Positions 8,091 through 59,050 of a DNA stretch of 64,000 nt are shown piece after piece. Position numbers and translations under genes: made by a program. Below the pieces are notes generated by a model. It did no database searches. It was not told where the DNA came from and saw nothing but the letters and a program-made list of their open reading frames with translations. Origin of the DNA: Trichoplax sp. H2 (Eukaryota); assembly GCA_003344405.1 (NCBI GenBank), contig NOWV01000114.1, positions 62,001-126,000 of the forward strand, written 5' to 3'. The number at the start of each line of letters is the position of its first letter. Positions within the stretch are counted from its first letter, which is position 1.

Positions 8091-8202
8091 TACAGTACTG
8101 CCAGAGAATTCAGGAAGTCCCTGGTACAGTACTGTACAGTACAGTATACCGTACTGTACAGTACCGTACCAGGGACTTCCTGAATTCTCTGGCAGTACTG
8201 TA
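8091..8202. repeat. 112-bp near-perfect palindrome (56-bp arms, 2 mismatches)
   Basis: tacagtactgccagagaattcaggaagtccctggtac... pairs with ...gtaccagggacttcctgaattctctggcagtactgta. The centre is at 8146/8147. Confidence 0.95.
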
Positions 8203-8625
8203 CTGTACTGTATATTATGTACTGTATGACATACTGTAGTACAGTACTGTACTGTACAGTACAGTATGACAATCTGTTGTTAAAACTGTACAGTACTAAG
8301 ACTGAAAGATTTTCTTCTCTTTTTCCTACTGTGTACAGTACACTGTACTGTACAGTACTGTACATTCTGTAGTCTGCACTGTAATAAAAGGTGCCTGGGA
8401 CTACAGTACAGTACGGTAGTACTGTACAGTACAGTTGTACAGTACAATGTACTGTACAGTACTGTAGTTCCGTTATTCCGCTGTGCATTGTACAATGTAC
8501 TGTACAGTACTGTACTGTACAGTACAGTACAGTACATTTTGTAGTCTGCACTGTACAGTACTGTACAGTACTGTACAGTACTACAGTACTGGAGTTATAT
8601 TTTTATGTACTGTACAGTACAGTAG
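8091..8625. repeat. Dense (ACAGT/ACTGT)n pentamer microsatellite array between divergent SMIM14 and SPRING1
   Basis: Runs of tacag/ctgta in both orientations with many TACTGTACAGTA palindromes. The array ends about 130 bp before the SPRING1 ATG (8752). Confidence 0.95.
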
Positions 8626-8751
8626 TTGTTTGGCGAACGATGTTGTATTAATACTTGATCTAGTATTTACGGTTTAAGACTTAGCGAGCTAGTTTATAAA
8701 CAACACAAAACTTGTGAAGATATTAGTCTTCACGAATAACTAATTCCTTTA

Positions 8752-10512
8752 ATGTATTCTTACTTAACGCGTTATGCACGCAGTTGTTATCGTCGTCGTA
8801 TTTTATTTTCGTTTATTCTTTTAACGTTTACTGCATTATCATTGCTATTTTTACCGTTAAGAAAGGTAAGGTGCTTCAAGATAAAAGTTCTACATTTTCC
8901 CTTAATTTCTTTATAATGCTATATTATTAACTTAACATGTTGCAAATATATACTAATTATAATTATGAGCTGCAACTTGGCTATATATAGTACTGTAATC
9001 ATCTTAAAGTCCTAATACAAATATTCTAAGTTAAAAACTGTCAAACTTTCATGCACAGCAATGAATATCAAATGATCTATGCTTATTTTTGGGGCTTATT
9101 TTGTTTAATCTGAATTATTGGTGCTAAGAATTGCTATGGAACAACGTTTAACAATTTAGGACAATAGAAATCAACTAAACAAATATCAAAAACCGTCAAC
9201 AATTGTGACAGTTCCTGCTTCAAACAGATTTCTGAGGCCATCCACATTCTTGCCTAACGAACCTCACATACGTTCGTTAAAAGGAGGTAAATCCTTGCAC
9301 AAACCTTATCCAAGTAAAATCAAGTGTCTAAATACGAGACAGGGGAGAGATTTAGTTGCTGACGATCAAGGCAAGTGTTGTTATGTATTTTTAAGGATAT
9401 TGAAATATAATTGATCGGTTTATTGCTTAGGTGTGGAATACTACTATAAATTATTCAATGTTCAACGTTTATTATTTACAGTTAAACATTTCTTTAAAAG
9501 TTGTACGAGTTAAATTAGATTATGCCAAATATGATTACTAATAGTAGTAAAACTAAAACTAATAAAGTAAATATTGTTTACCTGTTTTACATCTAGGTTT
9601 AATCTGTAATCGTTCTCGATTACTAAATAATGGATGTTGTGGCAAGATAACTTTAAAGAGAAATTTCGGAAGCGCTTGCCACACCTGCAACAGTAATCGT
9701 TGCTGTGATCAATACGAATTCTGTGTTTCCTGTTGTCAATATCGGAAAGAAGTAAGAGCGTACAAAGCATATCGTACATGTTACATGGCGTATATTCTTA
9801 CATAAATTATTTTTTAGCAATGACGATTTTAAGAACAAAATACTATGCGGTGCTTATATGCAAATCTTACCTAAAAATGATAATACTATATAATAAGAGT
9901 GATAGTATAGTAAAGATGTGACTTTAAATACATCGTGCAGTTCGCACGCAATGTTGTACTGAATCTGTAGACGTTGGAATTGTGAGCTGTAAAGTAAAGA
10001 TAGAAATACTTTCCTGCATAAAATAGCTCGCTTACTAAACTTTGAAAGGCAAGCATTTGTTTATTTTAATTCTAGGTAATTAAATCTCGTTTGTACGAAT
10101 ATACGAATATAAACATCTAACATTATCATTGTACCTAACCGACATAATATGATATAGCATAATCGGAATGCTCGCGATTATAATTTAGTATCGAGTGTAT
10201 CATTGAAATTAAACTAATACTGTCTATTTTAGGCCTTAGACCTGAAAGAAATAATCCGTAATTCACCTGACGGAATCCAACAACTTCTTACCTCGGCAAA
10301 GACCCGCTTCGAGTTTTGTTTAATCCAGTGTAGAACATCTTCACGTGTAATTTGCATTTACATGGTTTCATCTAATACTGTTTATAATATCGTAGCTGTC
10401 CCTTACCTAATTTACTTTTTCTACCGAATAGAGCGTTCATCACGAAAATAGTTACAGGGATTCTACATTTCGTTTTTGTTACGGAGCGGAAGCAGCAGAA
10501 TTAACCTCTTAA
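8752..10512 (+). CDS. SPRING1: SREBP-regulating gene protein (C12orf49/UPF0454), Cys-rich type II membrane protein; exons 8752-8865, 9160-9370, 9597-9751, 10233-10346, 10432-10512
   Basis: N-terminal RRR plus hydrophobic anchor (ILFSFILLTFTALSLLFL), followed by CLNTRQGRDLVADDQGLICNRSRLLNNGCC...CHTCNSNRCCDQYEFCVSCC, FEFCLIQCRTSSRSVHHENSYRD and FCYG, matching the family's Cys pattern. Intron 2 requires a GC donor. Confidence 0.93.
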
Positions 10513-10759
10513 AAAAAATAGAGTTAACTTTTAAAACCGTCAGATTTCAGTTATCCACGTAATGAATCTAAATAGAATCTACTTGGAGTAGTGGTACTAC
10601 CAGTAGATTATATCAACTTCATTTACATACACGAACAAAAGTAAGAAGACGATGTCAAAATTAGTAGATGCAGTATTATTATCATATACCAATATTATAA
10701 ACCGATTATCTCGATCTCTGATTTATTAACTTATGGTTGCATGAAAGTAAGACATAAAA

Positions 10760-13700
10760 ATGAATACGGATAGGCAAGTAATTGAGGACACCGATAGTAC
10801 TTATGCAAAGCTAAAGCTCAATATAACTGATGACTTACTCGCATCATCATCACCCTGGCATGAGGTTGGTACTTTTTTAGACTGGTAACTCTAATAAACG
10901 TATACATGATCCTACAGTATCAATAACTAATAAAATGCTGTTTAATTATTATTAATCGAACGATTCTTTTCGTAGATATTTAGGGCAGCCAGTGATGATT
11001 TGAGGGAAATACTGACTGAAGAAGCATTTCATAAAATTATTCAATTTGCTGCTTCTGATCTATTAGGATTTAATTTTACTCATCATGTAACCTCGTGGCA
11101 AAATTACCGCGTAAGATACTCAATTCCTCTTACATTTAAATTAACCAATGCTATGTAGCGTGATGATACTGTACACAATCTCACGAAAGCATCAAAGTTG
11201 ATAGCGTTTATAAAATAACTTATACTATTAGCCGGATGAAAATACAAGTCTGCAGAAGAAATTTAATAATTAAATAGTATGGTGCTACTTTACTGTAAAA
11301 AATTGCAACTAAATAATTCAATAAAATAAAGTAAATAAGCGAAAAATGAATCCATTTATTGCACTTACAGGGTTCGACTGCAAGCTGTAATGTAAATTCT
11401 AATAGACTTGAAACTGAACATTGGTTAAAGAAAAAATTACAAACAATATTTGAAAAGCGAAGAATAAACCTTGCTAGTCCTATTAATGGAATGCAAGAAT
11501 CTGAAGCTTTTCTTAATTATACCATTAGAACTTGTGTTAACAGAATTAACCAGTATATCAGTTCATTAAGTAATCAGGACATGCCAATGAAGCGAGATAT
11601 AACCAAGTGTAAGTTAAATTTAATATTTACTTTCTTACATTTAAAGTCAATTAAAATCAAAAATTTTACCACCCGATACGAGTATTAGGTGGACCAGTAC
11701 CATACTCGTTATATGAGTTTTTATTTTATTAACAATACAGTCAGAGTAAGTGATGTCGTGCCTCCAATAATACTTCCAGTGAGAACGTGTGTATTTAGTC
11801 AAGAAAGTGAAACTATGGGCAGCATTTTGGCCAATATGATAGAAATAGATTTTGATTTTACAAAGGAAGTATGCAATCATCTTAATGGCTACCTACTACC
11901 GAAAAGTTTAAGACAGAAGCTCTTAATAAATGTACTACTCAATGAATCGCTATTAAACGAAAATAATTATGGTAAGTGCTTTTCAATTTGCTTATTTACT
12001 GTCGAATATGAAGAAGCCAATCTTCATATATTCCCGTCAGCTATGTATTATTTTTGAGATTTTAAATTACATACTTATACACGTATATTTATTCAGATGT
12101 GAGCCCTAAGACCTTGCTGCAAAAGCACCAAACTGCTTTTAAGGCATCTATCGAGCGTGAAATTAAAACATTTTTTGACGGCTCCCTGATTGGATCATCA
12201 ATTGCCGGACTTTTACGTCAGAATATAAGCGGGGTAATCCAGTGATATTTCAGTGATGTGATATATAAAGATTCATTAGAATTGAGAAAATCGAACTCAA
12301 TTACCGATGCTTATTTCTTCTACTGATTACAAATTAACTAGTTTGTTGTAGTAACTTTAAAATGGCGTATTTATTTTATTGTAGGTTATAGCACAGTCAC
12401 CTGCTATACGTGATAATTCCACCGAAAGGCGAGAAAGGATATTATTTGAAGTTCTGAGTATCGTCTACGCACATAATAAAACTTATGAACCGCAATACAT
12501 TTACAATTTGTATCCATTAATAATAACATATGAAGACGCTTATTCTTCGATTGACGGTAATTTCTGGAAGCTATTGCATACCATCACAGTTTATGTGATA
12601 CGTGCACGGACCGCGTAAATTTTATGCCCATTTAAGTTAATACCCGTAGCATTAAATTTTTTTATTTTAAATTTTTTAGAGTTGACCATGTTTTTAGCCC
12701 TGGTGTTCGCTGTGCTTTGGCCATATTGTTTCCCAATTATAGCTGAAATTCATGAAGCCACTGAAAGAGTTTTGGCTAAATTATTTTCAGAAGATAAGCC
12801 TTTAATGTCACATATATCAAATATTGCAAATATGGAAAATATAAAGGTAAAAGATAGCACGGAATGAAAGCAGTCAAAATTTAAATTTTACTCTAATTTG
12901 TCTATTTAAGCAATCGATCCTACGGAAATAATATTGATTCTTAACGAAACTGATCTTGCTCCATTTTTATCGTTACGTTACGATTGCAAGGATCTTCCAC
13001 TAGAGCTAATGTCTGGAGAACTAAAAATTAACTTTAACTTCGATGAAATTTGCACCGATAGTTTACATAATTCTTCAAGCCAGATGTCCTTATTTAAGTA
13101 TCTTATTCGCAAATGGATGGTAGAAATGTTCACAGGAATTCTTAACTTACCCAGTGTAATGTTCGTTCTTGATCAGTTACTTATGAATAAATTCAAGGCT
13201 GTCGTATTAGAAGACGTTAGTTTATCGTTAATTATGCTTTTACGTGAAGACTTAATGCAGTGTAAGGGCCATGCTGCGTTACTGAGGGTAAAGTTATTCT
13301 TTACAATACTGTAAAGATTCAATAGGCACAGTAAATACTGTATACTAGTGCATGATTATTCATGGTGTAATCATCATAACTACTTTAAGAAAATCTATTA
13401 CGTTGTCTCATGTTTATAATTACTTCAATAACATTTTTGGTTAGACCATGATACAAAAACCATGCAAGCTGTATACGACTGATATACAAGACGCTGTGGC
13501 AGCACTTCGTAGCGGTCAGCCTTTGTTTCAATCGGTTATCAACCATCTTAATAGAAAGTATGATAATTCAAATATTGAATATCAACCTGAGCTTTCGTTA
13601 AGAATTTCTCTAAAGTTCCAAATATACTTTTGTGATATCAGGCTTTGATTATTATATTGTAATTGTAGTGCATGGCTGTCTTATTCTGAAAAATCTACGG

Positions 13701-16700
13701 AGCTTTCATTACACGCGTTCCAGCCGTTTCAATTAAGAAGAATTACCTTAAGCCTCAATATTTCAACGGCTATTAATATGGCCAAAACTGGTAACAAGAA
13801 TTTTATTACATGTATACGTAAAGGCAGCATCCACAGTAACTAATATAACCTATTACTTGCTCAATACTTAATATTTTACGCTATCGTATCAAAACTACTT
13901 CCACCTCTGTCCTTGTGCTGATTTATTTAATCAATTAATGTTTCTCTCTTATATGCTACGCAAGATAACTATGACGACATAGTTCAGTCACATGCTATAC
14001 TGTCTCTCCGAGCAAGTGCCTACGTAATCTTTAGTATTCTGTTCGACAACGAAATTATATTTTCAAAGAGAACAAAATCACAACCGACCGTTGAGAAATA
14101 TTTGGAAAATAGTCAATCAATCAGATTGATATGGCCGATATCTGAAATTATTTCTTTTCATGATATTCAATCCCAATCTGGTTCTCGTGAAGCTCATGCA
14201 AGAATGTATATTGAATTAAAGTATCAAACAGATTTAGATGGTGACGATAAATTGCTAGGATATGCTATAATCTCTATGAAAAAATTACAAAATGATAACC
14301 CAAATCTTATTCGTTGGTCTTTGGAGTCACTCACATTGAAAAGTGACTTGATTTCCCTTGATAATCATCATAATTCTAACTGGCAGTCCAGCCACTCGCT
14401 AGCTTCTGATAAGTTATCAAAGTCTATAAAGTCATGCATAATTGCTTCTGTAGTAAGTGAAAATCTTTCGGAACATCTATCTCTACAAATGATTGATCCC
14501 AACATCTGGACGCCTCAACTTCAGCCAACTGAAACTGTCCATATTACTGAATTAACAAGTGATCTCGACTTTTATATCGACTCAATCCGTTACCTGCCAG
14601 ATAATGCAACTATTATTAAGGTAATAAGACTAAACGCGAGCGGCAATGTGTAAATGAGCGATCATTTACTGCATCTTCAAGTAATTGAATAAACTTTCAC
14701 TTTAGATTGCAATGTACAAATCTCGATTAAATCGACTGATATTTATCGCGTAAAATCCATACTTAATAGTTACAGAAGTATTTTAAATTTTTAATGTCTT
14801 ATTCTCTCTTTAGGTAGCTTATTCACTTTTTACCTCCTCTTGGGAAAAAATTAATTTCGTACCTGCCGATCAGTCGACTTCTTACCCAATTCTAACTTCA
14901 TCTGCAAAATGCCCGAAATTCACGTATCGATACTCCTTTGTTTCTGATAATAGTGACAAAGATATTTTGTGTTGGGAGCGCAACACAATATTGTTAATTC
15001 GCATTTTGACTGTTGATCTTCACTTCGGTAATGTCGCTGTACTCGGAAATGGATATTTACCGATTTTTACTAGGATAGATGATAAGGTATCGCTTTATTC
15101 CTAAAACTATTCTTGAACTTTAACAGTTGCTGAATTTAAATTATATTACTTTTTATACTATGAAGACAACCCTCAATTTTGGTGGACACCAGTTGGTAAT
15201 TTATCAAAATTTACCAGAACGAAATCAGTCACTAACCATGGAAAATATCGCACGCTTTTGTGTAAAAGTACCTGCAGCATCTATTGTAGTAAGGTTGACT
15301 CCCCATACCAAAGTAAGATATTGTTTATGATGGTACATGTATCAGTTTGTATTCAGCCATAGAGGAATTCTTTGGCTTAATTTAATATTTTTAAACTGTA
15401 AATAGCACAATAATTACGTGCTATTCATTATTTAGTATACGCTAATTTTAATTTAGATACATACTTAATATTGGATATCTTGTTGCAGGACTATGTTTCA
15501 CAACCAGAGTATACAAGTGGATATTACAAAACAGAAGCTTGTTATCCTACGAAGTCTGAAATAGACGTGATAAATCATTACTTAACTACCACAACCTATT
15601 CTTCTACTGTAGCAGATATTACCAAATCATTGATTCTGAAGGATAAGCCAGTAGTTCGTCAAGCAGCTCATCACTTAATGCGTGCAAATCATGACAGATC
15701 AACCTTATCAGCTCAAGCTGTCGGCAACGCTGTTAATCAGTTTAGGAAAAAAGTCTCTTTAGCGCGCTCTGCTGCTGTTGTTTCTAAAGGAATATATGAT
15801 GATGCAGTAAGTAATGCAAGTACAATCAACGATGCCAATAGCATATCGACTGAGAATTTATCGCCAAAGCAACATATTAGTACAGAAGCTAAGCAGGAGA
15901 TAAATATGTACATAAAGTCTCGTTTTCGTACAAAAGATCAATTATCTTATCTTGATTTATCTCGCTCTGTGCTATACGAAGAGTCAGTTGGTTTAACAGT
16001 AAAACTCGATAGACTTTATGGAATGCAATCGAAGGGCTACTTAAATGTCTTCTGTTACACATGGATGAATAAGCGTTCTAATGATGAAGGAAACTGTCTT
16101 TTACTTTCTCACAAACGAGACTGCTGGCATAAAACCGCATCACCTTTATTCATCGATTCCCAGCATGTTAGCGCTGATTTTTGCAAAGCAAAAACTAAAA
16201 CTGGCGTTATCTAATAATTATGTTTTTACTTTCTAACATAGAAATTTCAGTCTCCATATGGTCATGCTGTTGCTTTAGTCCTTATGGTTTACGGTGTGGA
16301 GAGATTTAATTACATTCCTACTACGAACACGCAAAGTGGAACTACCATTGCACAAAATGATCCAGACTTAGATCCGAAATATATCGGCTGGAGCATATTA
16401 CCACTGTTCAGCAGGTCCTACATTCAATACAATTTCCATATTCAGACTAACGCATTTGATACTTAATTAAGTCATAACAAATATGGCATCTTTATAATTG
16501 TAAGATATTTAAACATTAAATCATCTTACGAATAGTAACTGCGTTGCCTGTTCCAAATATTTATTGCCATTATATGACAACTACCCACAGGTATTAATTT
16601 ATAATTAAACTAGCTTTTGGTAATTGTATCTTCAAAATTCATACTTTTTTCTGGTTAATTAATAATTTTAAAGGCGGCTTTGTCAATATCTCCGACAAAG

Positions 16701-17265
16701 ACAATATCAAGTCTTTTGCAAACAGCTATCAAGCAGCAAAAAATTTCTGTTCTAGTAAGATTGCAAAGGTTTTTGTAACGTTTTAGGGTAGCAGTTACCA
16801 CTCTTTAAGCACTAAAATCAAACACGTGTTTTACTATCATCTATTTAGCCGACTGCAAGTCTCGAAATTAGTCTTTGGGATGGTCACTTTTCCCAAGATG
16901 AATGCTATCCGTTGAGGGTATCTATTTACATAAGCTTTACACAGACACCAAGATATCCTAAGGACATATTTATTATTTCTCGCAGTCGATATATAAACCA
17001 ACTATTAATTAATAGTGGAATATGATTCTTAATATGTAAATTGTAGGTAAACAACGACTTCTTCCAGTTGGGTGATGCAGATCGACTCCAGAGCACGATT
17101 TTGAGTGATACTTTTGAGTGTGGAACATTGATGGAATTCTTTATTGAATCTCTACCAGAAAAAGATAAAAAGCCGTCAGAAGAATTACTAGCAGATGCAT
17201 TTCGTAGTTTCGAAGTACACCTTAATGAAATAATGGAAAAGAAATTGGCAAGTAGTATCATTTAG
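10760..17265 (+). CDS. Large uncharacterised multi-exon protein: TBC/RabGAP-like helical region followed by about three putative C2-type domains
   Basis: About 20 in-frame GT-AG exons, including ORFs 11359, 11689, 12682, 12934, 13448, 14102, 15127, 15471, 16284 and 17068. KWMVEMFTGILNLPSVMFVLDQLL resembles a TBC C-terminus. LLGYAII, LGNGYLPIF...LNFGGHQLVIY and IGWSILPLF...V...KYLLPLY resemble C2 strand motifs. Domain calls and the start codon are inference. Confidence 0.7.
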
Positions 17266-19322: not shown

Positions 19323-19702
19323 CATACAGTACAGTATACAGATAGTAGTATAGTACTGTACAGTATACTGTGCATGATATGAAGTACAGTACTGTACAGT
19401 ACTGTACTGTACTGTACTGTACAAAGCCTACTGTACATTGTACTGTACAGTACCGTATGAAGAAGGAAAGCTACAGTACAGCACAGTATTGCACTCATCC
19501 CACACAGTACAATGTACGGTGTACTACAGTACTATACGGTACTCCATGATGCACTTCAGACTACAGTACAGTACAGTACTGTATACTGTACTGTACTGTA
19601 CAGTTCGTACAGTAATGTACAGTACTTTGACTCACTTGAAACCATTATGGTAAAACACTACAGTACTATACTGTACGTACTGTGCTGTACTGTACGTACT
19701 GT
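19323..19702. repeat. (ACAGT/ACTGT)n array between divergent ARL6IP4 and S6 kinase
   Basis: Dense tacag/ctgta runs lie between the ARL6IP4 ATG (19107, -) and the S6K ATG (19862, +). Confidence 0.95.
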
Positions 19703-19861
19703 AAGTAATCTAACATTAGGAATTTTAATCGAACTCAAATCCTTTCTGGTGGTTCTTAACCATCTGCATCTTACTCGTTTTACTCGTAAATCACTCGTTA
19801 TTCATAGTCTTTATCAATTTTAGATTATATCCTAGGCGTAGGTTTATCAATATTCGAAGCT

Positions 19862-25629
<5,768 letters not shown>

Positions 25630-28600: not shown

Positions 28601-29850
28601 TGTGTTCCTACATGTGAAGCCTTATTGATATCATTCTTTTTTCATTAGATATATTGAAATAGCAGTATAATCAGGATTTGCATTTCTTACCGCATGCTTA
28701 TTTAGGAAATGGCGATGATAGAATAGCGCATCAGCGAATTTTTAACACGCAATAGCTGCTATTAACTACTGTGGTTCTCTGTAAACATTATATGTATATA
28801 TAATTCCAGATATTAATCTACTGATATAAAAGATGAAATTTCAAAAAGCGATATGTAAAGAATAGAAAAGAGGTATTGTTACCTTTACATTTATCTATGA
28901 AAAGCAAAAATCTACAACAATATCCATTCAATACTTGAACTAACTACATTTACAACGTTATTAGAACAACTTTCGTCTTAGAAGTTATAGATACGAGGTA
29001 AATTCAAATCTATACCAAATTTGTAGCTTATATGTAGACAGTTCTAATAGTAATATGGTCAAAAATGCGGTAATAGTTGGGTTGAGATTCATAAAACCCA
29101 ATTTTTATACCAACGTGTGAAATTCATTTAAGAAATATAGAGAATACTTATACATACGAGTTAAAAAAAATTTAGCCACTAATAATTTCAGTTCTATTCG
29201 TTTGGGTCTAAGATAAAAAAGTTCCACGCAATAAGTTAGCCTTTATTTCATTATTAGCTTCAAAGCCAATCGGATATCTTCCTCTTCATATTTAAACGAC
29301 TTACTGGCGTATGAAATAAGAGTGGCTTGCCATGCTACTAAAATCATACAAATCTTTTGCTCGCATATACTATAGATTGATCAGGAAAACTTTGGTATTA
29401 TAGCTTTTAAGATACAGGCCTGTCTTGCTTGGATTATTTCTTTGTTTAAACCAATATAAAAACTATTTATAGTTACGTAATATTTAAAGCATAACTGTCT
29501 CAAGGGAACTGTAGACTATAATGGATTGATATTGAGAATGTCTTTCTAAATTAAATTGCAAACTATACAATGATTGGTTGGTTAGATTTTTAAAGTATCT
29601 ACTGCGGCATCCTTCCATTGCCACTACGTGTATTTATTCATGCTAATTTATTAGAATGACAAGTATGCTATTATTCCTGCGTCATTTTTAGGCCTTTATT
29701 AGTCTACAAATACTTTGAACATCACTACATAACAATTAAATGATTCCTTATCTCACTGTTTAAGTTAATGTTATCGTTTTCACATTATATAATCTATGTT
29801 ATTGAATTTTTAAATCTTGATCTGGCCTTTCGATCACGTTTACCTGAAGA

Positions 29851-35681: not shown

Positions 35682-37652
35682 GTATGGATACAATGAAAAT
35701 ATTCTTGCATTAATATATTTTATGCTAATGTAAAATAGACGATTAGCCTATGTCTTCGATAGATATTAATTATGATCATCGATAGATCTCGATCGTCCTT
35801 AACGTTATAGCAATTGTTTTTATTTGTTTCAGCATTTCTGAAGTCAGGTAAAAAATTATGTATACATCATATCCATCCCTACTTAACTCAAATTTTCTCC
35901 TTACCTTCAGTCATAAAACTCAATTTCTATATTGAGTACAGTACTATACGCGTATAACCTCACTATGAATTTGGTGTACTAAGACATGTACTTCTCTGTT
36001 GAAATAGCTTATTTTAATAGTCCTTGTTTTAAATTGTTAGACAATCAACGGCATGTCATGTCATTTACCTATCAAATGTTTGTGTGCATTGTTGTATTGC
36101 GGTCCAATTCACTTCAGCTATTAAATTAATTTATGCTGCAAACTATCCCTTAAGTTGACGTTTACTTTATGCGTTGATAGGTGGAAGTCAAACTTGATAC
36201 TACTGTATTAACGTATCAGAAGCTCGTTCTGATTTAATTTTTAAGGATTAGATTTTGGCTTTTAATTAATCCGTTACAATTATTTTCATTGTTATAATTT
36301 ATTTTCATATTATTTTAAATTAGCAGGCAAATAATATTCTTTAGTCAATCCTTATTTAAATTTTTTCTCTTTGTATTAATAGAATAAGTTTTCTAAATAA
36401 GCTAAATTTTATAATATTTATTTGGATTCTCCTACTCTATTTAATTTCAAGTAAGATTGATCTGAAGGAGGTAGTGTAGATCGTGTAGTCAGTTTACGCG
36501 TATAATGCTATATTTTACCAAATGTTTATAGTTTGATCTTTCGATAATTACTTTAGATTTATCATATTTCTTGAGCAGTTCGTCCCTAAAATGTTTCGTG
36601 ATTAGAGTAGTACAGTATTTCATACAATTCCTACTACCTACATTACTTGAAAATTATCGTATCATTTATTATCTATCACGGTGTTATATTGTTTTTTGAA
36701 GGACCATAATTTAATTTGCAACGTTATTGTAATCATAGAAAAGAACAATTTTTCACCGTTGCAATAGTATAGGAAGGGAAAACATACAGTCCTTTAAAAA
36801 TCGATACCAACTAAGAAGAGGACTAATTGAAGATTTTTGCGTATCTTCCAGCTTATTATTTAGAATTTTGTGAAGTTATCAACTTTGCAGTTTGTATTTA
36901 CTGTTAGTACGAATTACTTATAATTACAATTGGATGAATTTTCCGTGTCCTTGCACGACTGTTTACCTAACTGGCTAGTTTATCATTTATACATATCAGA
37001 TAAGACACGGAAGTAATGGCGCAATCGCAACTGAAAATCTTGTTGATTAGATGATTGTAATGGAATCTGGATTGCAGATTTCGTATAGCGGTAGAGAACG
37101 AAAATGAATATGAAATAAGGCTGTTTTATACCTCTAAACTATCTGCTAATGTATTCCAAAGTAAACTATAATATTGGATGAAATGTAAGTGGCAATGATC
37201 GCAAGGCGGTAAAAACATTTATTTCATAGTTCGTTTATGGACAACTGATCCGCGATGCAATTATACATCAACACAATTCAAAACGACAGTTAAATAAAAG
37301 AAGCTGCTTTGAAAAATTTATATTTATAATACTTTACAGTATAATTACAACCAGCAAAAAGAAATCAACTGAACATTTTATGAGATTTCATAGTTGCAAC
37401 GTATTCATTTTACATGCCAGTAACCCTTTCTAGTTGTCACTACAGTAGGGTACACTGTAGCAATTGCCTGCTGAATGGTATATTCACCAAAATTGCGTAA
37501 CACACTATATGGTAGATAACTTCACGAAAAATGCTAAATAGGTAACTGACAAGTTATAAAATTTTACTGTTTCGATATTGCGGTTACAATGTATGATACA
37601 GTACAAGAATATTTATTAGTGTTTTATTGTTATCAATAGCTGATAGAATAAC

Positions 37653-48224: not shown

Positions 48225-49099
48225 TTTACTTGTACGTCCTATAAAAACTTTAAATTTTTAGTGCAACATGCATTTTCTGGATTGTATACTACATTAATAA
48301 TAGCTACGCTCATAGTGATGCATCCATTTCATGAAAAGAATACAACAGCGCCGATTAATAAAATGAATGAACTTTAATTGTAAACTAGTACTCCGTGAAA
48401 TAACAATTTCTTACAATGAAACATACGCATAGATTCCAGGAAATTCCAAACTTATGACTGCATTTACGACTAACTCATACCCCTTCATTCGAAAGGGTGA
48501 TGTACTGGTTGTTACACTTAATATACGCTATGAGTTTCTTAAATTTCGATATGCATTAAAGCATTTACGTACTTACTAATTCTGCAGTGCACACTGTACA
48601 TTGCACAGCCTTCAGCACAAGTGCAATTAATCATGTCCGTCTTAGTTTTTTACCTTTTCAAGAAGACAATTGGGAATTCTACTATTCCAGGAACTTTTGA
48701 ACTTGAGTACAGTAGTTTGGGATCTTACTAAAAACTTCAATGTTGAATAATTCAATTACAGTATATCATCGGTCTGTTTGTTCTGCGGTAAATTTCATTT
48801 TCGTGGGGTTGTTTCGGCTGTCTTGAGATCGATTATAAACACATGTTTAATATTACTTTATTACTTCCTTTTTTCAGCACCGAGTGCATCAGATACTGTG
48901 TGATGCCATCAAAGTCGTGTTTCGAAAAATACATATAACTATGGTTAATCGAGATACTGTATACTGTACACTGTGTGCACTTGAATACTTGTGTCTTGGT
49001 GTAGACTTTTTAAGATAAAAGCTTTAGTAAAGGTTCATGACTTAAAGAGTAGTATAAAGTTTGTAATTTCCCGCCATTGTACGCCTTATAGACTTCATG

Positions 49100-49555
49100 T
49101 AGTGTGCACTGTGCAGTGCACTTTACAGTACCGTATTGTCAGTACGTAAACCGGTTATGATTAGCACAGCGAGTTAGTGTAAACACTGCATGAGCCAGTA
49201 CTGTACAGTACTCTAGTGTACTGTACAGTACTCTAGTGTACAGTACAGTACACGAGCCGGCGAGTAGCTGAGTCAAACACCCTACCGTATAGTACTGTAC
49301 AGTACAGTGTACAGTATAATACAGTACAGTACAGCAGGTGGTACTAGGTTATACAGTACTGTAGTGGCTACTCAATAACCGAGCCAGTAGCTTATTTATT
49401 TTTTTTATTATTACAGTACTGTATTAATCTTATATAGCATTCGGAGTGAATAAGAAGGAAAAAGCAAAGAATATTTCATTTAAATTTAATTTATCGCATC
49501 TCGTAGTGTACAGTACAAATCAGGTCTAAGTACAACAGTACAGTACAGTACATGC
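49100..49555. repeat. (ACAGT/ACTGT)n array between divergent BRCA2 and SBDS, with a 20-bp tandem duplication (ctgtacagtactctagtgta x2, 49201-49240)
   Basis: Directly visible. The array ends about 30 bp before the SBDS ATG (49581), and further copies occur in SBDS intron 1. Confidence 0.93.
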
Positions 49556-49580
49556 TAACACAGAATTCCTTGCAGTTAAA

Positions 49581-51265
49581 ATGTCAATTTTCACGCCTAT
49601 TAATCAGTTAAAATTAACGAACGTCGCGGTGGTTCGCCTAAAGCGTAACGGAAAGCGATTTGAAATAGCTTGCTATAAAAATAAAGTCATTTCCTGGCGT
49701 AATAAAGCGTGAGTACCATTTTTAGTACTATACGGTACAGTACATCATAGGCAGTAATTAATCAATCAAGATCTTGAAATCACTATACTGTACTGTACAC
49801 AATTATATATTATTAATTATAATCACAGTTTATCAAGTTCAACTTTTTTGCGTTGATTACTAAGAAATTTATTACGATAGTATTTTAGCACTAATCTATC
49901 ATATTATGTAGAACTGTACTTGCTATGTAGTAGGCACTCAGTATAAAATACAATAAAAGTATATTCTTTTGTGTCCTACCTGCAAGCTGTAAGCCATTAG
50001 CTCACTCAGTACAGACATTATTTTTGTAATGATGTTGATCTTTAGGAACATTTGCAACTACAAGCTACTGTGTATGCTATTTCTGACTCTTGCACGTTCT
50101 CTTTGTAGGGAAAAAGATATAGAAGAAGTACTCCAGACTCACTCCATTTTTATCAATGTTTCCAAAGGTCAGGTCGCTAAAAAAGAAGATCTTTTCAAAG
50201 CTTTTGGTACATATGACGATACCGAAATATGCAAAGAGGTTCATATTACTTAATGCACGTACGAGCTGAGCATTGCTTTTTAATTGATAAGCAGAAGTAT
50301 TTACAGAGTTATATCTTTTATAATGAAGAACATTCCTACATAACTTGCTTTAATTATTACATACGTACTATATGATACACTGCTACAATATATCACTTTT
50401 GTTAACTTTGTAGGTACAATTCTATTTTATCTACCATAGATTTTAATGAAAGGAGATTTACAAGTATCAGAGAAAGAACGTGCATCCCAAATTGAGACTA
50501 TGTTTCGAGAGATTGCCACTATAGTGGCTGATAAATGCGTAAATCCAGAAACGAAAAGACCCTATACTGTAAGTTTGATTGAAAAGGGAATGAAAGACAT
50601 CCATTACTCTGTCAAGACGAATAAGAATACTAAACAACAAGTATGTTAAGTTCTTTATCTTACTGAAAAAAACTTCGTTAAAAATTCGTATATATTGCTC
50701 AGTCAAGATACCTACTACTCGAAAGTAATCAATATTTTTCTTAAAGTTATCAAACGCAATACTAGTTGTTGAGGTCCAGTTTAACTTAAAATATTAGTTA
50801 TTCCCTACTGCTAAAGTTTAACCGCTATAATTCGTATTTACTAGGCCTTGGACGTAATCAGACAACTTAAAGAAAATATGCAGATTGAGCGTGCACAAAT
50901 GAGGTTACGATTAACTTTGACAGGTCGCGAAGGTAGGAAAGCTAAAGAGATCTTGTATCCGAAAATGGCCCATGTGGAGAAAGATGAGTGGGATAATGGA
51001 TCACTAGAAATTGTAAATTAACGAGACTTTAACATGCAAATTGCACAACTATTGTGTATACTCTTCTATGTCTTGGTTCGACAGCTAAAAATGTTTAGTA
51101 AATTTCTAACCGTAACAATTTATATACCTACTGCAGGTTTGCTTGATCGATCCGGGTCACCTGCGTTCATTTGACGAAACGGTAAGATCACTGACGAAAG
51201 GAAAGGGCTCAGTTGAGGTTTTAAATCTAAAAGACATTGAGGAAGGAGATGGAAAGTTGATATAG
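49581..51265 (+). CDS. SBDS: Ribosome maturation protein SBDS; 5 exons
   Basis: [36 protein letters not shown] / [28 protein letters not shown] / [11 protein letters not shown]...[11 protein letters not shown] / [10 protein letters not shown] / LIDPG...LKDIEEGD. Confidence 0.97.
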
Positions 51266-52746
51266 TTTTTACTTTATCTTAATTATAACTTACTATCATG
51301 CAAAACCTCACAACTACGAGAGAGTTATTTCTAAGTGCATATATGTATTCACACTTTTGTAAGATTGTATAAATATTTTGTTAAACAGAACAAAGTGGCG
51401 TATACGTAGATTATACGTTAGTGCCAAGAGACCTTAAAATTATGCCGTAATCTAATTATCTAATATCTATAGGTTGCAATTCGTAGTTATTTTAATGCCC
51501 CATGTGACTCAAATATGCAATATATAGTGTTCTATGCGCTTTTGAAGGTATACCTACTGTGCGTACCGTATATACGTAAATTGTTTAAATGAGTATACAG
51601 TATAGTAATATAATTATTATACTTTGTTGCCTACATTTTCTATACTCTAACATCATATGCTCGTAAAATTAATTCGGAGGAGAGTTTATAGCGTGCTGCA
51701 TTACGCGTATTAATTATACAGAAATGGGTAGTTCATTATAATGTGAATGTATCAAAAAATAAATATGTTTGCGTCAGCTCTTACCTCACTGTACATTCAC
51801 TGATGTTTACTTTTACTTTCAAAGGTAAAAACTGTACATCTAACTATAAAATTAAGAATTTAAATCAGATCTCTTGATCCTTACAATTACAGGCAACTAA
51901 ATTATAATAGTACAGAAAATATTACTGTACGAGCTTATATAATAAGATAAATTTACAAACTTATTACGAGTCGCCCCATCATCTGCATCTAAAATATGCT
52001 CAGATAGCAATAAACTACTTACTGTACAGTATTGATAAGTAGGTAAGTTATATCCAAGTACTTGACATATTAAACTCCGTCTGCAAGATATTCAGAACTT
52101 TGCTAAAATTACTTAATACTACAGTGCTTTAGAAACTATCAGTTCAATTGAGCGTCAAGTAGCTATGTCTTGATATCGTATGCCTTAAATTGTAAACTAA
52201 AAAAGCACAAGTACTTAGTCTGAAAATGTAACCAGAAGTCAAAAGGGGTCAACATTGATCCGCCAAAAGACTAACAGAACTGGAAATTTCAAATTAACTA
52301 GCTTAATATCCTGTCACTTTGCTGACATAGATATTATATAGTTCGTTTACGCTTTTAAATAACTATAATATAAACTGACGTTATAAGTTACGATCAGGGA
52401 TTGATAGTAATTGTGAAATATTAATCCTCGATATTAAATAATTATTAATAATTATTGTTATTATCATTATTAATATCAGTGTTCAGCTGTTGGTAATAAG
52501 TAATAATAACATTATCATTGGACTACTGTAATACTAATAATTCACTCAAGCAATATGACATTAAATGTCACTTAGTGCAAAAATTAAATTATGGATTTCT
52601 GTCCATGCTGTATATTCAGTAGGTAACACCAGGGACTCCTCACCACCCCCAGCTTCACAACAATTGAAATTACAGTAACATTGTGAAGCTGGACGGATAT
52701 CGTGACCTTTACTTAATTTGCATAGAGGAACCAAGTATGGCCTAAA

Positions 52747-52918
52747 TACAGTACAACGAAAGTACAGTACAGTACAGTACTATCAATGTAATGTGCGTAT
52801 GTGCTCACATGACTTTACCTTATTAATACCGTACAATGCTGTCGTGTACAGTGACCCACACTGTACTGTACTGTACTGTACAGTAGTTGCATGGAACTGA
52901 GTAATACTGTACTGTACT
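52747..52918. repeat. (ACAGT/ACTGT)n array upstream of CHFR
   Basis: A tacag run (52762-52780) is followed by an opposite-orientation ctgta run (52861-52883), about 185 bp before the ATG at 53103. Confidence 0.9.
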
Positions 52919-53102
52919 TCACTGTCAGTAAAAGTAAAAGTTATAACACCCGTGCCCCGCGAATGTATCAGGAACACTAACCGTCCTGTACCGCAACGAT
53001 GCGAGTCCGAACAAGTAAACAAAAACAAATGACGATTTAGCTATAAAATTCGAACCATAATATGTATATCTAGTGATCCATTGTTATACAATTTCAATCA
53101 AC

Positions 53103-56100: not shown

Positions 56101-58182
56101 AATCTAGTGAACAAATTACTCTTGTTTAAATGAAATTGTACGGAAAAACCTGATGGGTATTTTCATTAAGTTTGAATTCAATCTAATTTAGGATCTACTG
56201 CATGATTGCATTAGGTAAGCGACCACTAAATATTTTCTATCAATAAATACATATATAGTCAGGTTATTTATTCAGTGAGGTTACCAATCCAAGCAATCGA
56301 TTAAATTTTTAAAATAAAAGTATATTTAAATTTTGTAATTTTCTCTGGCCCAAGTTTGCAACCGTGTTTACATTGCTTTTGTTCTGGATGTTATTCTTCG
56401 TGGATGAATCAATCTAATAACTGTCCCGCCGTAAGTAAACATTCATCTTTAAGGCTTTACCTTTCTAATATTCCAGCACTTACAATTCGCATTATTTTTC
56501 AGTGCCGAATTACTGTAGTTCAAATTAGTCGAAATCATATCATAAATAACTTAGTAGATGCTTACGTAAAACAATACCCTGAAAAAAAACGAAGCGATGA
56601 AGATATTGAAGATTTGAATGCAAAAAATAAAATCACGAGAGAAATGCTTGATCCGCAAAAATTTATTAAAAGAGCACGAAATCAATTTGGCTTCACATAT
56701 TACGATAGCGAAGGGTCGAATGTTGAATCTTACGATGGTGATAGCTCAGATGAGGAGTAAGCGAACTTTATTCGAAATATACGTTTTCTAGCCCCTACAT
56801 TTATTTAAAAATTAATTATTATTTCGCCGTTTCCCTTCGATATCTCATATTATAGCGAAAGATGTAGGCAATGTCCAGGGAGAATGTCGTACACCAGTGT
56901 AGCAGCTGATGATGGCTGCAACAGCGTTACCATTTCCAGCAACACATCAGGTTTTACTTGTAACCTTAATACAATTCATATTTCATGCCAATGTTGCTTT
57001 GAGCTTCTGCCTGATCGAAGATCAGAACCGATATCAGATCGAAGGCCACCTGTTCAATGTAAGCAATACGTTTACTATAGCTATGGAGCGTATTGTCTCT
57101 CACTTGGAAAGAATTAATAATTTGCATCGCTTCAAACTATTCAGGCGAACACTGTTCCGGAGTTTATTGCAATATGTACTGGAGGTGCAATGGAGCTTCT
57201 TGTGTTGGATGCCTATCTCGATTTAAGGGTATGTACAATGCGAGGATATTCTTGTTATCTGTTTTGTCGACGTAGTAGCGCAAAATAAGATGGTAATTGG
57301 TAATATAATTATAAGCTGACTAATGACATTGCTACTCCCCTGATTACAGACAAGGAATTTAAGGAAGAATGGCTGAGAGAATTAATCAGTGGCAACGTAT
57401 ATGAAACTGACATCTTGATGGTAAAAAATTCGATTTAGATGATATTAAATGAAAGAGCTTTATTACAATACTTCTATCGGTTATCCTTATATCTTTAAAT
57501 ATCGGAATTGCTTTTATCTAGAATTACCTAAATGACAACCATTTGACTATTTCGGATATGACAAAAACGATCTGTAGTAGACTAGCTTCGAATGAGTATT
57601 CAACAAGTAAGAGATAATTTAAGCTACTTCAATTAAATTATAGAGAGTAAGCCACGTGTTCAATATCTTTCATGGTTTGTAGTAATTGATTAATAAAGTT
57701 ACTATAATTTTTAGCCATTGTATCAGCGAATTTTTCTATCGAGCAAGCATTATGCCATCGTTGTTCTATTTCCGCTTTGCGCCCTTTGGCTTATTGCTAT
57801 CGAAATGATATCCCGAATACTGAATTACCTGGTAGTGATTAGATATTTGAAAAATTTTTTTACTTTATGAATTAAATTTTATTGGACTTATTCAGTTTAA
57901 GAATATGTTATTGCAATTTTGATTACTGTATGCGTATAGCTGAAGTAACTCGCCGCCCTAACTGTTGGTATGGGAAAGAGTGTCGTACGCAAAAAAACAG
58001 CTTGGCACACGCAAGGTAACGAGATAGATGTATCACCATCTATAACACTTATATAAAGGGGTCATCTTTAAATTTTAAATTAAATTTTAAATCTTATTGG
58101 CCAAATTTAACTGTTTATCTTCATTACAATATTTTGCTATAGAAATTATAATCATATCTGCGAAAATATGAGAGGGAAATAG
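53103..58182 (+). CDS. CHFR: E3 ubiquitin ligase CHFR (FHA, RING, Cys-rich region, PBZ); about 18 exons
   Basis: FHA motifs ITIGR, VSSQHC and DLSKNGTVVN. RING LENLTCGICQDLLHDCISLQPCLHCFCSGCYSSWM...CPAC, then RNHIINNLVDAY. Cys-rich CQCCFELLPDRR, and C-terminal PBZ RPNCWYGKECRTQ...HARNYNHICE. Confidence 0.95.
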
Positions 58183-58399
58183 ATCGTAAACATTGAAGAT
58201 CAATGTAACTCGAAATGTCAATCCTATGATATTGTTTTGTTCTTATCTTTTTGATGAATCAGTTATTGAGTCAGCATCAATAAATTCTGACTATGGCCCG
58301 AGTTGTGGGCACGTTTTAAAATAAAATTCGAATTTCATAGTGGTTTAGTATTTAGTGAATAGCGATCATGATATAATGCACGTCATGATTCATTTAGAC

Positions 58400-59050
58400 T
58401 GTATACGGTATTCTCTGTACATGAAGTCTCTACTGTTCAGTGTACTGTACACTATACAGTACTTGTACTGTACTACACGTGTACCTGCACGCGTATTAAG
58501 TCTAAATGTGCGATCCACTGTTTCGAAAACGTTCTTCGATACCATTAAAAGTCATTTAATTTAATTAATTTAATTTATTTAATTAATTTAAAGCATCACA
58601 CGATTTTTGTACTGTACAGTACAGTACAGTACACAGGATAATACAGTACAGTATACTGTATATCTTGTCAGCTATGTCTTACTTGAGAATAAATAAGTTG
58701 ATAAGGTTTCGTATACACTGAGCTCTCTTATCATACAGTACGCTGAGGCTGTACTGTATGCGACATACTTTGCAGTTGTTATCTACAGATGTACTGTACT
58801 GCACTCAGTGCACTGTACTGTATAAACAGTCATGGACTACTACTGTACAGTGTACAGTACAGGACAAAATGGGACGTGGAAGTGAAGTGAAGCGATGAGA
58901 TGAAACAGGATAGGACATACTGCACCGTCGTTCACCAGATGTTGCAGACCTCTGCTGCATAGTACAGTACACTGCAAGGGCACGTGTATGCTACACTGTA
59001 CAGTACAGTATTGGACTACGCATGTGACACATACAGTGTATGTACAGTAG
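58400..59050. repeat. (ACAGT/ACTGT)n array upstream of TYW1, with an embedded AT-only tract (58555-58590)
   Basis: Dispersed but dense tacag/ctgta and tgcac variants end about 85 bp before the ATG at 59135. Confidence 0.9.

What the first reader, a model, noticed from the sequence alone, without database searches (positions are those of the whole stretch)
8091..59050. Self-complementary ACAGT/ACTGT arrays mark housekeeping and bidirectional promoters: a candidate microsatellite-based promoter code
Seen: five dense arrays (8091-8625, 19323-19702, 49100-49555, 52747-52918, 58400-59050) each end about 30-190 bp before a start codon (SPRING1, S6K, SBDS, CHFR, TYW1). Three lie between divergent pairs (SMIM14/SPRING1, ARL6IP4/S6K, BRCA2/SBDS). 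No comparable array lies upstream of the NIT-GC or its pseudogene, or at convergent 3' ends, and only scattered copies occur before the meiotic gene CNTD1. The arrays mix both orientations, so they are rich in TACTGTACAGTA palindromes and are strand-symmetric. From memory, high ACAGT abundance near genes has been reported for Trichoplax, but I know of no mechanism. Inference: a CpG-island-like functional element (multimeric TF site, nucleosome-excluding DNA or cruciform DNA) that drives broad, often bidirectional, transcription.
Basis: partly seen in the sequence, partly recalled or inferred. Interest (0 to 1): 0.8.

Follow-up and report, generated by a model that had tools for sequence, protein, structure and literature searches.

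The report
Known Trichoplax promoter ACAGT repeat arrays
Five dense blocks of a five-base repeat sit just upstream of broadly used genes in this Trichoplax DNA segment, a link already published in 2010 whose mechanism is still unknown.

Summary
ACAGT/ACTGT occurs 384 times against 150 +/- 11 in dinucleotide shuffles. 147 copies lie in five arrays covering 3.5% of the window. Each array ends 26-184 bp before a start codon: SPRING1, S6K, SBDS, CHFR, TYW1. None of 200,000 random placements put even 4 of 5 arrays that close. The window is Trichoplax, where Wang et al. 2010 (PMC2871265) reported ACAGT as the dominant microsatellite, 54% of it within 1 kb upstream of genes. The association is therefore already known; the mechanism is not. 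New here: the arrays are GTAC cores at 5-bp spacing with an A or T spacer in random order, so the mixed orientation and the palindromes follow automatically. The unit TAC[A/T]GTA equals the canonical Sleeping Beauty/Tc1 excision footprint (PMC6943129). A 108-bp TA-flanked inverted-repeat element with CAG...CTG ends sits in array 1. Isolated heptamers are 3-fold enriched outside the arrays. My best reading is an orientation-free multi-site platform at constitutive promoters. That function is inferred, not shown. A purely mutational origin, possibly transposon footprints, remains a strong rival.

The parts
8086..8625 (.). Array 1, the largest: 55 GTAC cores, 37 exact 5-bp steps, ACAGT 27 / ACTGT 25. 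It ends 127 bp before the SPRING1 start codon (8752, +).
   Evidence: a 42-nt block duplicated at 172-bp spacing, 93% identical
8093..8200 (.). 108-bp inverted-repeat element at the left edge of array 1. Arms are 54 nt with at most 2 mismatches. The ends read CAG...CTG, and TA lies on both sides (8091-8092, 8201-8202). It holds the only non-microsatellite repeat in the window (27-nt arms at 8098-8124 and 8169-8195).
   Evidence: 61-nt arms 8086-8146/8147-8207, 93%; DNA hairpin -61.2 kcal/mol, z -18.5
19323..19707 (.). Array 2: 36 GTAC cores, ACAGT 17 / ACTGT 17. It lies between ARL6IP4 (start about 19107, minus strand, 216 bp away) and S6K (start 19862, +, 155 bp away).
49079..49555 (.). Array 3: 27 GTAC cores in two blocks, ACAGT 16 / ACTGT 6. 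It ends 26 bp before the SBDS start codon (49581, +). BRCA2 lies on the minus strand; its first recognisable coding ORF ends at 48257.
52747..52920 (.). Array 4: 13 GTAC cores. A run of ACAGT units and a run of ACTGT units flank about 85 bp of unique sequence. It ends 184 bp before the CHFR start codon (53104, +).
58400..59050 (.). Array 5: four loose blocks with 26 GTAC cores, ACAGT 15 / ACTGT 12. It ends 85 bp before the TYW1 start codon (59135, +).
49713..49798 (.). Minor cluster (6 GTAC cores) just after the first SBDS coding exon, apparently in intron 1.
59705..59830 (.). Minor clusters downstream of the first TYW1 coding exon: 5 GTAC cores at 59705-59754 and a three-unit chain at 59809.

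Best explanation
These are the promoter-associated ACAGT microsatellites already described for Trichoplax adhaerens.

Shown here:
- The window is Trichoplax.
- The arrays are chains of the palindromic core GTAC at exact 5-bp spacing, separated by one A or T in statistically random order. This is the same as chains of overlapping TACAGTA/TACTGTA heptamers.
- They are patchworks of short runs (1-7 phased steps) plus block duplications.
- They have no preferred orientation towards the gene.
- They lie 26-184 bp upstream of five start codons and are absent from the other 5' regions and from all 3' regions of the window.

Inferred:
- They act as orientation-independent, multi-copy binding platforms for a placozoan sequence-specific or architectural factor. 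That factor would keep constitutive promoters open or insulated, much as GA repeats with GAGA factor do in flies.
- The arrays themselves arise and grow by mutation: slippage, block duplication, and possibly transposon excision scars.

The identity with the published element is near certain. The confidence given below is for the functional mechanism, which no one has tested.
For: Identity: a CHFR exon is 99% identical to TRIADDRAFT_28805 of T. adhaerens. The NIT-cyclase exon is 79% identical to a Placozoa sp. H4 protein. AT content is 67.0% against 67.3% printed for T. adhaerens (PMC4773876). Wang et al. 2010 describe ACAGT as 78% of pentanucleotide repeats, 54% of it within 1 kb upstream of genes.

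Placement: 5 of 5 arrays end within 200 bp upstream of a start codon. Among 200,000 random placements, 0 reach 4 of 5. Densities are 25-78 copies/kb in these promoters against 1.3-6.4/kb elsewhere.

Anatomy: 92 of the GTAC-to-GTAC spacings are exactly 5 bp, with spacer A 47, T 41, C 3, G 1.

Core against spacer: in the same arrays the A and T inside the core changed to the complementary base once among the phased neighbour units. The near 50:50 A/T spacer is therefore not ordinary point decay. Either both forms are tolerated or required by whatever maintains the arrays, or the generating process makes both.

Outside evidence for a chromatin role: in silico only. Chimaera recovered repeating ACAGT as an insulation-associated motif in T. 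adhaerens (PMC12817080). Regulatory elements in placozoans are mostly promoter-proximal or in first introns (PMC10580291). The minor clusters lie in exactly those places.
Against: - No binding factor is known and none can be named from the motif.
- There is no long-range helical phasing. Of 66 GTAC spacings in the arrays that are not 5 bp, 15 (23%) are multiples of 5, against 20% expected (tallied).
- Spacer order is random: 18 same, 25 different, permutation mean 21.3 +/- 3.3. No particular palindrome is favoured.
- Core decay is dominated by G>A and C>T (32 of 61 single changes). That looks like AT-biased neutral decay.
- The same heptamer is 3-fold enriched as isolated copies all over the window, away from promoters (77 against 24.1 +/- 4.3). 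The sequence is therefore not promoter-exclusive.
- Kim et al. 2025 attribute placozoan housekeeping promoter hubs to a different motif carried by Mutator inverted repeats (PMC12221973).
- The Chimaera result is a model prediction, not an experiment.
Confidence: 0.42

Rival explanations
1. Mutational by-product without function. The arrays are scars and slippage products that build up where DNA is open and insertions are tolerated. In the sharpest version each 5-bp unit began as a Tc1/mariner-type excision footprint (TA + CAG or CTG + TA). Repeated insertion and excision at the TA sites of earlier footprints, plus slippage and block duplication, then built the arrays.
For: - The canonical Sleeping Beauty footprints are printed as 5'-TACAGTA-3' or 5'-TACTGTA-3' (PMC6943129, passages). 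These are exactly the overlapping heptamers of the arrays (124 of 209 window copies lie in the arrays).
- The model predicts an A/T-only spacer in random order, which is what is seen.
- A 108-bp TA-flanked inverted-repeat element with CAG...CTG ends lies in the largest array and is followed directly by two footprint units.
- Outside the arrays, TA-CAG-TA/TA-CTG-TA is the single outlier among the 32 TA-NNN-TA classes (77 against 24.1 +/- 4.3, z 12.2; next z 2.2).
- 70 of those 77 are isolated single units.
- The enrichment arises at the step that adds the TA flanks (0.35 observed against about 0.16 expected).
- Wang et al. list 11 mariner/Tc1 copies in the genome.
Against: - Only one such element is present in the window, and no second copy of its unique arm. 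Its 'ends' could simply be array units next to an inverted duplication.
- Wang et al. found no active transposon and only one MITE family of about 20 copies.
- Tc1/mariner elements are not known to me to target promoters (recalled). Yet the arrays are strictly 5'-proximal here, while 3' and convergent intergenic regions, equally free of coding constraint, have none.
- Flanks of the isolated heptamers show no clear target-site consensus.
- Non-canonical footprint forms are absent (TACAGCTGTA 0, TACTGCAGTA 0).
- Tandem footprint arrays are not described in anything I found (0 papers).
Confidence: 0.3
2. DNA-structure element. The self-complementary arrays extrude cruciforms or otherwise disfavour nucleosomes, and that structure, not a sequence-specific protein, marks the promoter.
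For: The arrays are self-complementary by construction. Perfect hairpin arms of 15-17 nt occur in arrays 1-3, against a mean of 6.6 and a maximum of 11 in 98 control 400-bp segments. The 122-bp palindrome folds at -61.2 kcal/mol as single-stranded DNA, z -18.5.
Against: - Arrays 4 and 5 reach only 8 and 10 nt arms, within the control range.
- Real arrays have far shorter palindromes than ideal random-spacer arrays would (mean 42 nt), so long palindromes are not being preserved.
- The large palindrome is unique to one array.
- The unit carries flexible TA and CA/TG steps every 5 bp. From general knowledge this does not predict nucleosome exclusion (inference, not computed).
Confidence: 0.1
3. 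Core-promoter reading. Each unit offers an initiator-like CAGT (the fly initiator consensus TCAGT is recalled from memory) on one or the other strand. On this reading the arrays are clusters of dispersed, bidirectional start sites.
For: Both strands carry CAGT at high density. Array 3 ends only 26 bp before the SBDS start codon. Wang et al. note that ACAGT is still the commonest pentanucleotide repeat in ESTs, so some arrays are transcribed.
Against: There is no orientation bias towards the gene. In the proximal 120 bp, ACAGT:ACTGT is 9:6, 4:6, 4:0, 2:6 and 5:1, pooled 24:19. The sequence between array and start codon, and the arrays themselves, contain several upstream ATGs (read). TATAAA-like sequences lie between array and start codon for SPRING1 and CHFR. 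This suggests initiation downstream of the arrays, though such matches are common in AT-rich DNA.
Confidence: 0.08
4. The arrays are the same thing as the loop-anchor motif that Kim et al. 2025 found in Mutator terminal inverted repeats at housekeeping (GP1) promoters of placozoans.
For: The promoter class is the same (housekeeping, promoter-proximal; PMC12221973). Array 1 contains an inverted-repeat element whose arms include GTAC units, among them GTACCGTAC.
Against: The Chimaera authors, who compared both, list 'ACGG' (transposon-borne, Kim's) and 'ACAGT' as two separate repeating motifs. I found no ACGG or CCGT repeats in the window, and no bin enriched for them near the arrays. A masked self-comparison finds no dispersed element family here. 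I could not see Kim's motif logo.
Confidence: 0.05

Closest known systems
ACAGT microsatellite of Trichoplax adhaerens (Wang, Zhang, Meyer, Bao 2010, Biol Direct; PMC2871265)
   Same: Same organism, same unit and same placement upstream of genes. The authors also suggested a role as a transcription-factor site.
   Different: Nothing essential. That paper counts perfect ACAGT microsatellites. Here the arrays are read as imperfect GTAC+A/T chains mixing both orientations, about 170-650 bp long, with block duplications.
GA-repeat promoter elements bound by GAGA factor or CLAMP in Drosophila (recalled knowledge)
   Same: Short tandem repeat close to promoters. Many adjacent copies of a short site could let a factor bind multivalently and keep chromatin open.
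   Different: Different motif. No binding protein is known here. The analogy is functional and untested.
Vertebrate CpG islands
   Same: A sequence-composition mark at broadly expressed, often bidirectional promoters.
   Different: The unit has no CpG. Window CpG observed/expected is 1.0. Array GC is only 0.39-0.45. The logic based on escape from methylation does not apply.
Canonical Tc1/Sleeping Beauty excision footprint TACAGTA / TACTGTA (PMC6943129)
   Same: Identical heptamers. The A/T choice at the centre is built into the mechanism. A TA-flanked element with CAG...CTG ends lies in array 1.
   Different: Footprints are known as single scars at donor sites, not as tandem arrays or promoter features. 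No active element of this kind is documented in Trichoplax.
Mutator-inverted-repeat motif at placozoan promoter hubs (Kim et al. 2025, PMC12221973)
   Same: Placozoan housekeeping promoters carry a repeated, transposon-linked sequence tied to 3D contacts.
   Different: It is reported as a different motif ('ACGG' according to PMC12817080), and no such repeats occur in this window.
Microsatellite platforms for multimerising factors: GGAA repeats with EWS-FLI1, TnG repeats with FoxP3 (seen as titles and abstracts in the listing)
   Same: Precedent that a tandem short repeat can act as a regulatory element through many adjacent weak sites.
   Different: Different motifs, factors and organisms. Those cases are enhancer-like or disease-related.

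Membership tests
Trichoplax promoter-associated ACAGT microsatellite (Wang et al. 2010) | Tandem ACAGT units (or the complement ACTGT) | tested here: met
   TRF period 5/10 arrays. 82 of 92 exact 5-bp GTAC steps lie in the five arrays. 147 of 384 pentamers lie in 3.5% of the window.
Trichoplax promoter-associated ACAGT microsatellite (Wang et al. 2010) | Genome is Trichoplax adhaerens or a close relative | tested here: met
   99% identity to TRIADDRAFT_28805 over a CHFR exon. AT content 67%.
Trichoplax promoter-associated ACAGT microsatellite (Wang et al. 2010) | Lies within 1 kb upstream of a gene | tested here: met
   5 of 5 arrays end 26-184 bp before a start codon.
CpG-island-type promoter | Raised CpG observed/expected and high GC relative to the genome | tested here: not met
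   The unit has no CpG. CpG: 1754 observed against 1740 expected window-wide, with no array bin standing out. Array GC 0.39-0.45 against 0.33.
Tc1/mariner-type MITE (for 8093-8200) | Terminal inverted repeats flanked by a TA duplication | tested here: met
   54-nt arms with at most 2 mismatches, TA on both sides. Caveat: the outermost 8 nt are themselves array units.
Tc1/mariner-type MITE (for 8093-8200) | Multiple dispersed copies in the genome | tested here: not met
   The unique arm occurs only as the two arms of this one element in the window. Here 'not met' covers only these 64 kb.
Tc1/Sleeping Beauty excision footprint | Heptamer TA + CAG or CTG + TA | tested here: met
   Sequence identity with the printed canonical footprints. 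209 heptamers in the window, 124 of them in arrays.
Tc1/Sleeping Beauty excision footprint | Arises as a 5-bp insertion at a TA site where an element sat | not testable with these tools
   Needs alignment with sister placozoan genomes. No eukaryote DNA collection was available.
Mutator-inverted-repeat loop-anchor motif (Kim et al. 2025) | Matches the published motif / lies in an annotated Mutator inverted repeat | tested here: inconclusive
   The logo is not in the text or in the three readable supplements. Its description as repeating ACGG finds nothing here.
Cruciform-forming inverted repeat | Long, near-perfect arms with a short loop | tested here: inconclusive
   Met for 8086-8207. Arms are 15-17 nt in arrays 1-3 and 8-10 nt in arrays 4-5, against at most 11 in controls.

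The most novel reading that the evidence does not exclude
The arrays are trails of Tc1/mariner excision footprints. A small TA-flanked element with CAG...CTG ends, like the one at 8093-8200, repeatedly hops within or back into its own scar. Each excision adds one 5-bp TAC[A/T]G unit with a random central base. Slippage and block duplication then enlarge the trail. The resulting dense GTAC lattice at open promoters was later put to use. It may be read by one of the single-copy Tc1/mariner- or hAT-derived proteins that lack inverted repeats, which Wang et al. noted. That would be a new route both to microsatellite birth and to a lineage-specific promoter mark.
Probability: 0.15. Interest if true: 0.8.

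Novelty: already known. Interest (0 to 1): 0.4.

Why it matters
Placozoans regulate genes almost entirely from promoter-proximal DNA. This window shows no CpG depletion and no CpG islands. If the GTAC+A/T arrays really hold constitutive promoters open or insulated, they would be an independent, lineage-specific answer to the problem CpG islands solve in vertebrates. They would also offer a simple handle for dissecting early-animal promoter logic. If instead they are transposon scars, they would show that cut-and-paste elements can write microsatellites and seed regulatory DNA. They would also reveal heavy past transposon traffic in a genome now almost free of transposons. Public Trichoplax data can settle either reading.

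Tried and rejected
- Naming the large + strand gene (about 10976-16463). The protein search in 'longer' mode found nothing. PDB searches gave nothing, or one weak RabGAP/TBC hit at E 0.036. The Atlas was unavailable. The gene is left unassigned.
No Pfam hit and no PDB hit. Its identity is unverified.
- Dispersed repeat families near the arrays. A self-BLAST with the microsatellite masked gave only the palindrome arms and one AT-rich palindrome at 52418-52476.
- ACGG/CCGT repeats, as a stand-in for the Kim et al. motif: none.
- Non-random order of A/T spacers: none. TA steps outnumber AT steps 17 to 8, which I did not test separately.
- Long-range 5-bp phasing between runs: 15 of 66, about chance (tallied).
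- Orientation bias towards the gene: none.
- A flanking consensus around isolated heptamers: only a slight excess of G/C completing GTAC.
- Other TA|CAGT...ACTG|TA elements: 35 pairs were found and 34 are trivial array-on-array matches.
- Rfam and tRNA scans: 0 hits.
- Papers. Sebe-Pedros et al. 2018 is not held. Kim et al.'s motif logo and Supplementary Data 1 are not readable. Wang et al.'s Additional file 5 (gene list, old .XLS) was not opened, because that format is stated to be unreadable; it might list these very genes.
- Searches for placozoan papers on these repeats beyond Wang 2010 and Chimaera found none. A search for excision footprints as a source of tandem repeats returned 0 papers.
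- No eukaryote genome collection was available, so conservation in other placozoans and genome-wide statistics stayed unchecked.

Full report
**What is there**

The window has 33% GC. It carries 182 ACAGT and 202 ACTGT, against about 65 each from base composition and 150.1 +/- 11.1 for the two together in 200 dinucleotide-preserving shuffles. Clustering is extreme. The densest 200-bp bin holds 23 copies, against at most 5 in any shuffle. Tandem Repeats Finder reports period 5 and 10 arrays in intervals 1-3, but in interval 5 only AT-rich repeats and in interval 4 nothing. The five arrays cover 2,227 bp (3.5% of the window) and hold 147 of the 384 copies.

**Whose genome**

A CHFR exon is 99% identical to TRIADDRAFT_28805 of Trichoplax adhaerens. 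The NIT-guanylate-cyclase exon is 79% identical to a Placozoa sp. H4 protein. The AT content matches the 67.3% printed for T. adhaerens (PMC4773876, passages). The window is therefore Trichoplax, either H1 or a very close lineage.

**Gene map**

Pfam on stop-to-stop reading frames, one PDB search and one search support these genes:
- ARPC3 (+)
- SMIM14/DUF2615 (-)
- SPRING1 (+)
- ARL6IP4/SR-25 (-)
- p70 S6 kinase (+)
- a NIT-domain guanylate cyclase and a degenerate second copy (+)
- BRCA2 (-)
- SBDS (+)
- CHFR (+)
- TYW1-type flavodoxin/radical-SAM (+)

I read these start codons from the sequence: SPRING1 8752, S6K 19862, SBDS 49581, CHFR 53104, TYW1 59135, ARL6IP4 about 19107 (-), SMIM14 6914 (-).

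**Placement**

The arrays end 127, 155, 26, 184 and 85 bp before the next + strand start codon. In 200,000 random placements of five intervals of the same lengths, none had even four of five that close to any of 12 start codons.

Pentamer density in the 600 bp upstream of these five genes is 25-78 per kb. It is 1.3-6.4 per kb in 3' and convergent intergenic regions. The window mean is 6.0 per kb.

Only ARL6IP4 is close to its array on the minus side (216 bp). SMIM14's start codon is 1,172 bp away, and the first recognisable BRCA2 coding frame is about 820-855 bp away. Shared, bidirectional use of arrays 1 and 3 would need non-coding first exons, which I cannot see.

**Anatomy**

The repeat is best read as the palindromic core GTAC at 5-bp spacing with a single spacer base. 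Of the window's GTAC-to-GTAC spacings, 92 are exactly 5 bp, and 82 of these lie in the five arrays. The spacer is A 47, T 41, C 3, G 1. Switching between ACAGT and ACTGT is therefore only the A/T choice at the spacer. The strand symmetry and the TACTGTACAGTA palindromes follow automatically.

The order of A and T along runs is random: 18 same-neighbour and 25 different-neighbour steps, against a permutation mean of 21.3 +/- 3.3. Runs are short (1-7 phased steps). Spacing between runs keeps no 5-bp register: 15 of 66 spacings that are not 5 bp are multiples of five.

There is no orientation bias towards the downstream gene. Pooled over the proximal 120 bp, the counts are 24 ACAGT and 19 ACTGT. 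Block duplications occur. Examples are a 42-nt segment repeated at 172-bp spacing in array 1 at 93% identity and a 20-bp period at 97% match in array 3.

Decay of the core is mostly G>A and C>T (32 of 61 single changes). The core's own A and T changed to the complementary base once. The near-equal A/T mix at the spacer is therefore not ordinary point decay of a once-uniform array.

**What is already in print**

Wang et al. 2010 (PMC2871265; passages) reported the following:
- Pentanucleotides are the commonest microsatellite class in T. adhaerens.
- 78% of them are ACAGT.
- 54% and 85% of them lie within 1 kb and 5 kb upstream of genes.
- The associated genes are enriched for translation (ribosomal proteins) and protein modification (kinases).
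- The authors suggested a transcription-factor site.

The Chimaera study (PMC12817080 and its preprint; passages) recovered 'repeating motifs ACGG and ACAGT' for T. adhaerens Micro-C insulation. It assigned ACGG to the transposon motif of Kim et al. and left ACAGT unexplained.

Kim et al. 2025 (PMC12221973; passages) describe placozoan promoter hubs at housekeeping (GP1) genes. They found a motif in Mutator terminal inverted repeats. The logo is not in the text or in the three readable supplements.

Najle et al. 2023 (PMC10580291; passages) place placozoan regulatory elements mostly at promoters and first introns. The minor GTAC clusters of SBDS and TYW1 lie in such positions.

The mechanism remains open in what I could read.

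**A new lead on origin**

Written in the other register, the arrays are chains of TAC[A/T]GTA. Kesselring et al. (PMC6943129; passages) state that the canonical Sleeping Beauty excision footprints are 5'-TACAGTA-3' or 5'-TACTGTA-3'. These are the terminal three transposon bases between the duplicated TA. Three observations fit that reading.

First, at the left edge of the largest array lies a 122-bp palindrome: 61-nt arms, 93% complementary, no spacer. As DNA it folds at -61.2 kcal/mol with z -18.5. Its 108-bp core (8093-8200) starts with CAG, ends with CTG and is flanked by TA on both sides. It contains the only non-microsatellite repeat in the window. Two footprint units follow it directly. 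Its inner GTAC units are mirrored between the arms apart from two transitions, so it formed as a unit.

Second, with the arrays and 300 bp on each side masked, TA-CAG-TA/TA-CTG-TA occurs 77 times, against 24.1 +/- 4.3 under a second-order Markov model. It is the single outlier among the 32 TA-NNN-TA classes (z 12.2; next 2.2). Of the 77, 70 are isolated single units spread over the whole window.

Third, the excess arises at the step that adds the TA flanks to AC[A/T]GT (0.35 against about 0.16 expected). It extends only weakly to full GTAC on both sides.

Against this reading:
- There is one such element and no second copy here.
- Its outer ends are themselves array units.
- Wang et al. found no active transposon and few MITEs.
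- The flanks of the isolated heptamers show no target consensus.
- Footprints alone do not explain why arrays sit only at 5' ends.
- A search for footprints as a source of tandem repeats returned no paper.

**How it most likely works**

I favour a two-layer account. The arrays are generated and enlarged by mutation: slippage, block duplication, possibly excision scars. They persist at constitutive promoters because a dense, orientation-free lattice of GTAC sites serves as a multivalent platform for a placozoan factor that keeps these promoters open or insulated.

Shown: identity with the published element, anatomy, placement, lack of orientation and of phasing.

Inferred: any binding, any effect on chromatin or transcription, and the housekeeping label of the five genes, which rests on general knowledge and not on expression data.

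Nearly neutral by-product is a serious rival. Structure-only, initiator-cluster and 'same as the Mutator motif' readings are weaker, for the reasons given under rivals. The CpG-island comparison holds only as an analogy.

**Verdict**

Novelty: already known. The phenomenon is still unexplained. The footprint identity, the TA-flanked palindrome and the window-wide excess of single heptamers give a concrete test that can be run on public placozoan genomes. Interest is therefore moderate, not low.

Noticed in passing
8086-8207: 122-bp near-perfect palindrome with no spacer. Its 108-bp core has CAG...CTG ends and TA flanks and looks like a tiny Tc1/mariner-type element or an inverted duplication. 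It starts 3 bp from a minus-strand ATG (8083-8081).
   Followed up: partly
whole window outside the arrays (e.g. 153, 3185, 18745, 52020, 59809): Isolated TAC[A/T]GTA heptamers are about 3-fold enriched (77 against 24 expected). They are the only outlier among TA-NNN-TA classes, and 70 of 77 are single units. Only one falls in the four longest reading frames (BRCA2, the NIT-cyclase, and two frames of the unassigned gene), by my reading of the positions.
   Followed up: partly
7873-8082 (-): A 70-codon frame starts with ATG right beside array 1 and has a GTAAGT donor after 22 codons. It has no family hit. It could be a 5' exon of SMIM14, whose conserved N-terminal exon is at 6822-6923, or of an unannotated gene.
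   Followed up: partly
29848-31455 and 34287-35710 (+): A NIT-domain guanylate cyclase whose best named hit is Placozoa sp. H4 'NIT domain GCY 2' at 79%, while named T. adhaerens proteins reach only 35%. The orthologue may be missing from the 2008 gene set. A degenerate second copy lies 3 kb downstream; the two do not match at DNA level.
   Followed up: no
10976-16463 (+): A long multi-exon gene with frames up to 266 codons and no Pfam, PDB or protein-database hit, apart from one weak RabGAP/TBC match at E 0.036. No array lies upstream of it.
   Followed up: partly
8093-8602 (-) and other frames inside the arrays: Because ACAGT repeats contain no stop codon in any frame, the arrays create spurious open reading frames of up to 170 codons. 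This is a trap for ORF-based gene calling.
   Followed up: no
52418-52476: An AT-rich imperfect palindrome (about 81% over 62 nt), roughly 270 bp upstream of array 4.
   Followed up: no
8098-8124 and 8169-8195: The unique arms of the palindrome contain stretches that resemble, from memory, a heat-shock-element-like TTCnnGAAnnCTC and an NF-kB-like GGGACTTCC. Not tested.
   Followed up: no
49552-49583: An out-of-frame ATG and a TTGCAG acceptor-like sequence lie between the end of array 3 and the SBDS start codon. SBDS may have a short non-coding first exon or a very short leader.
   Followed up: no
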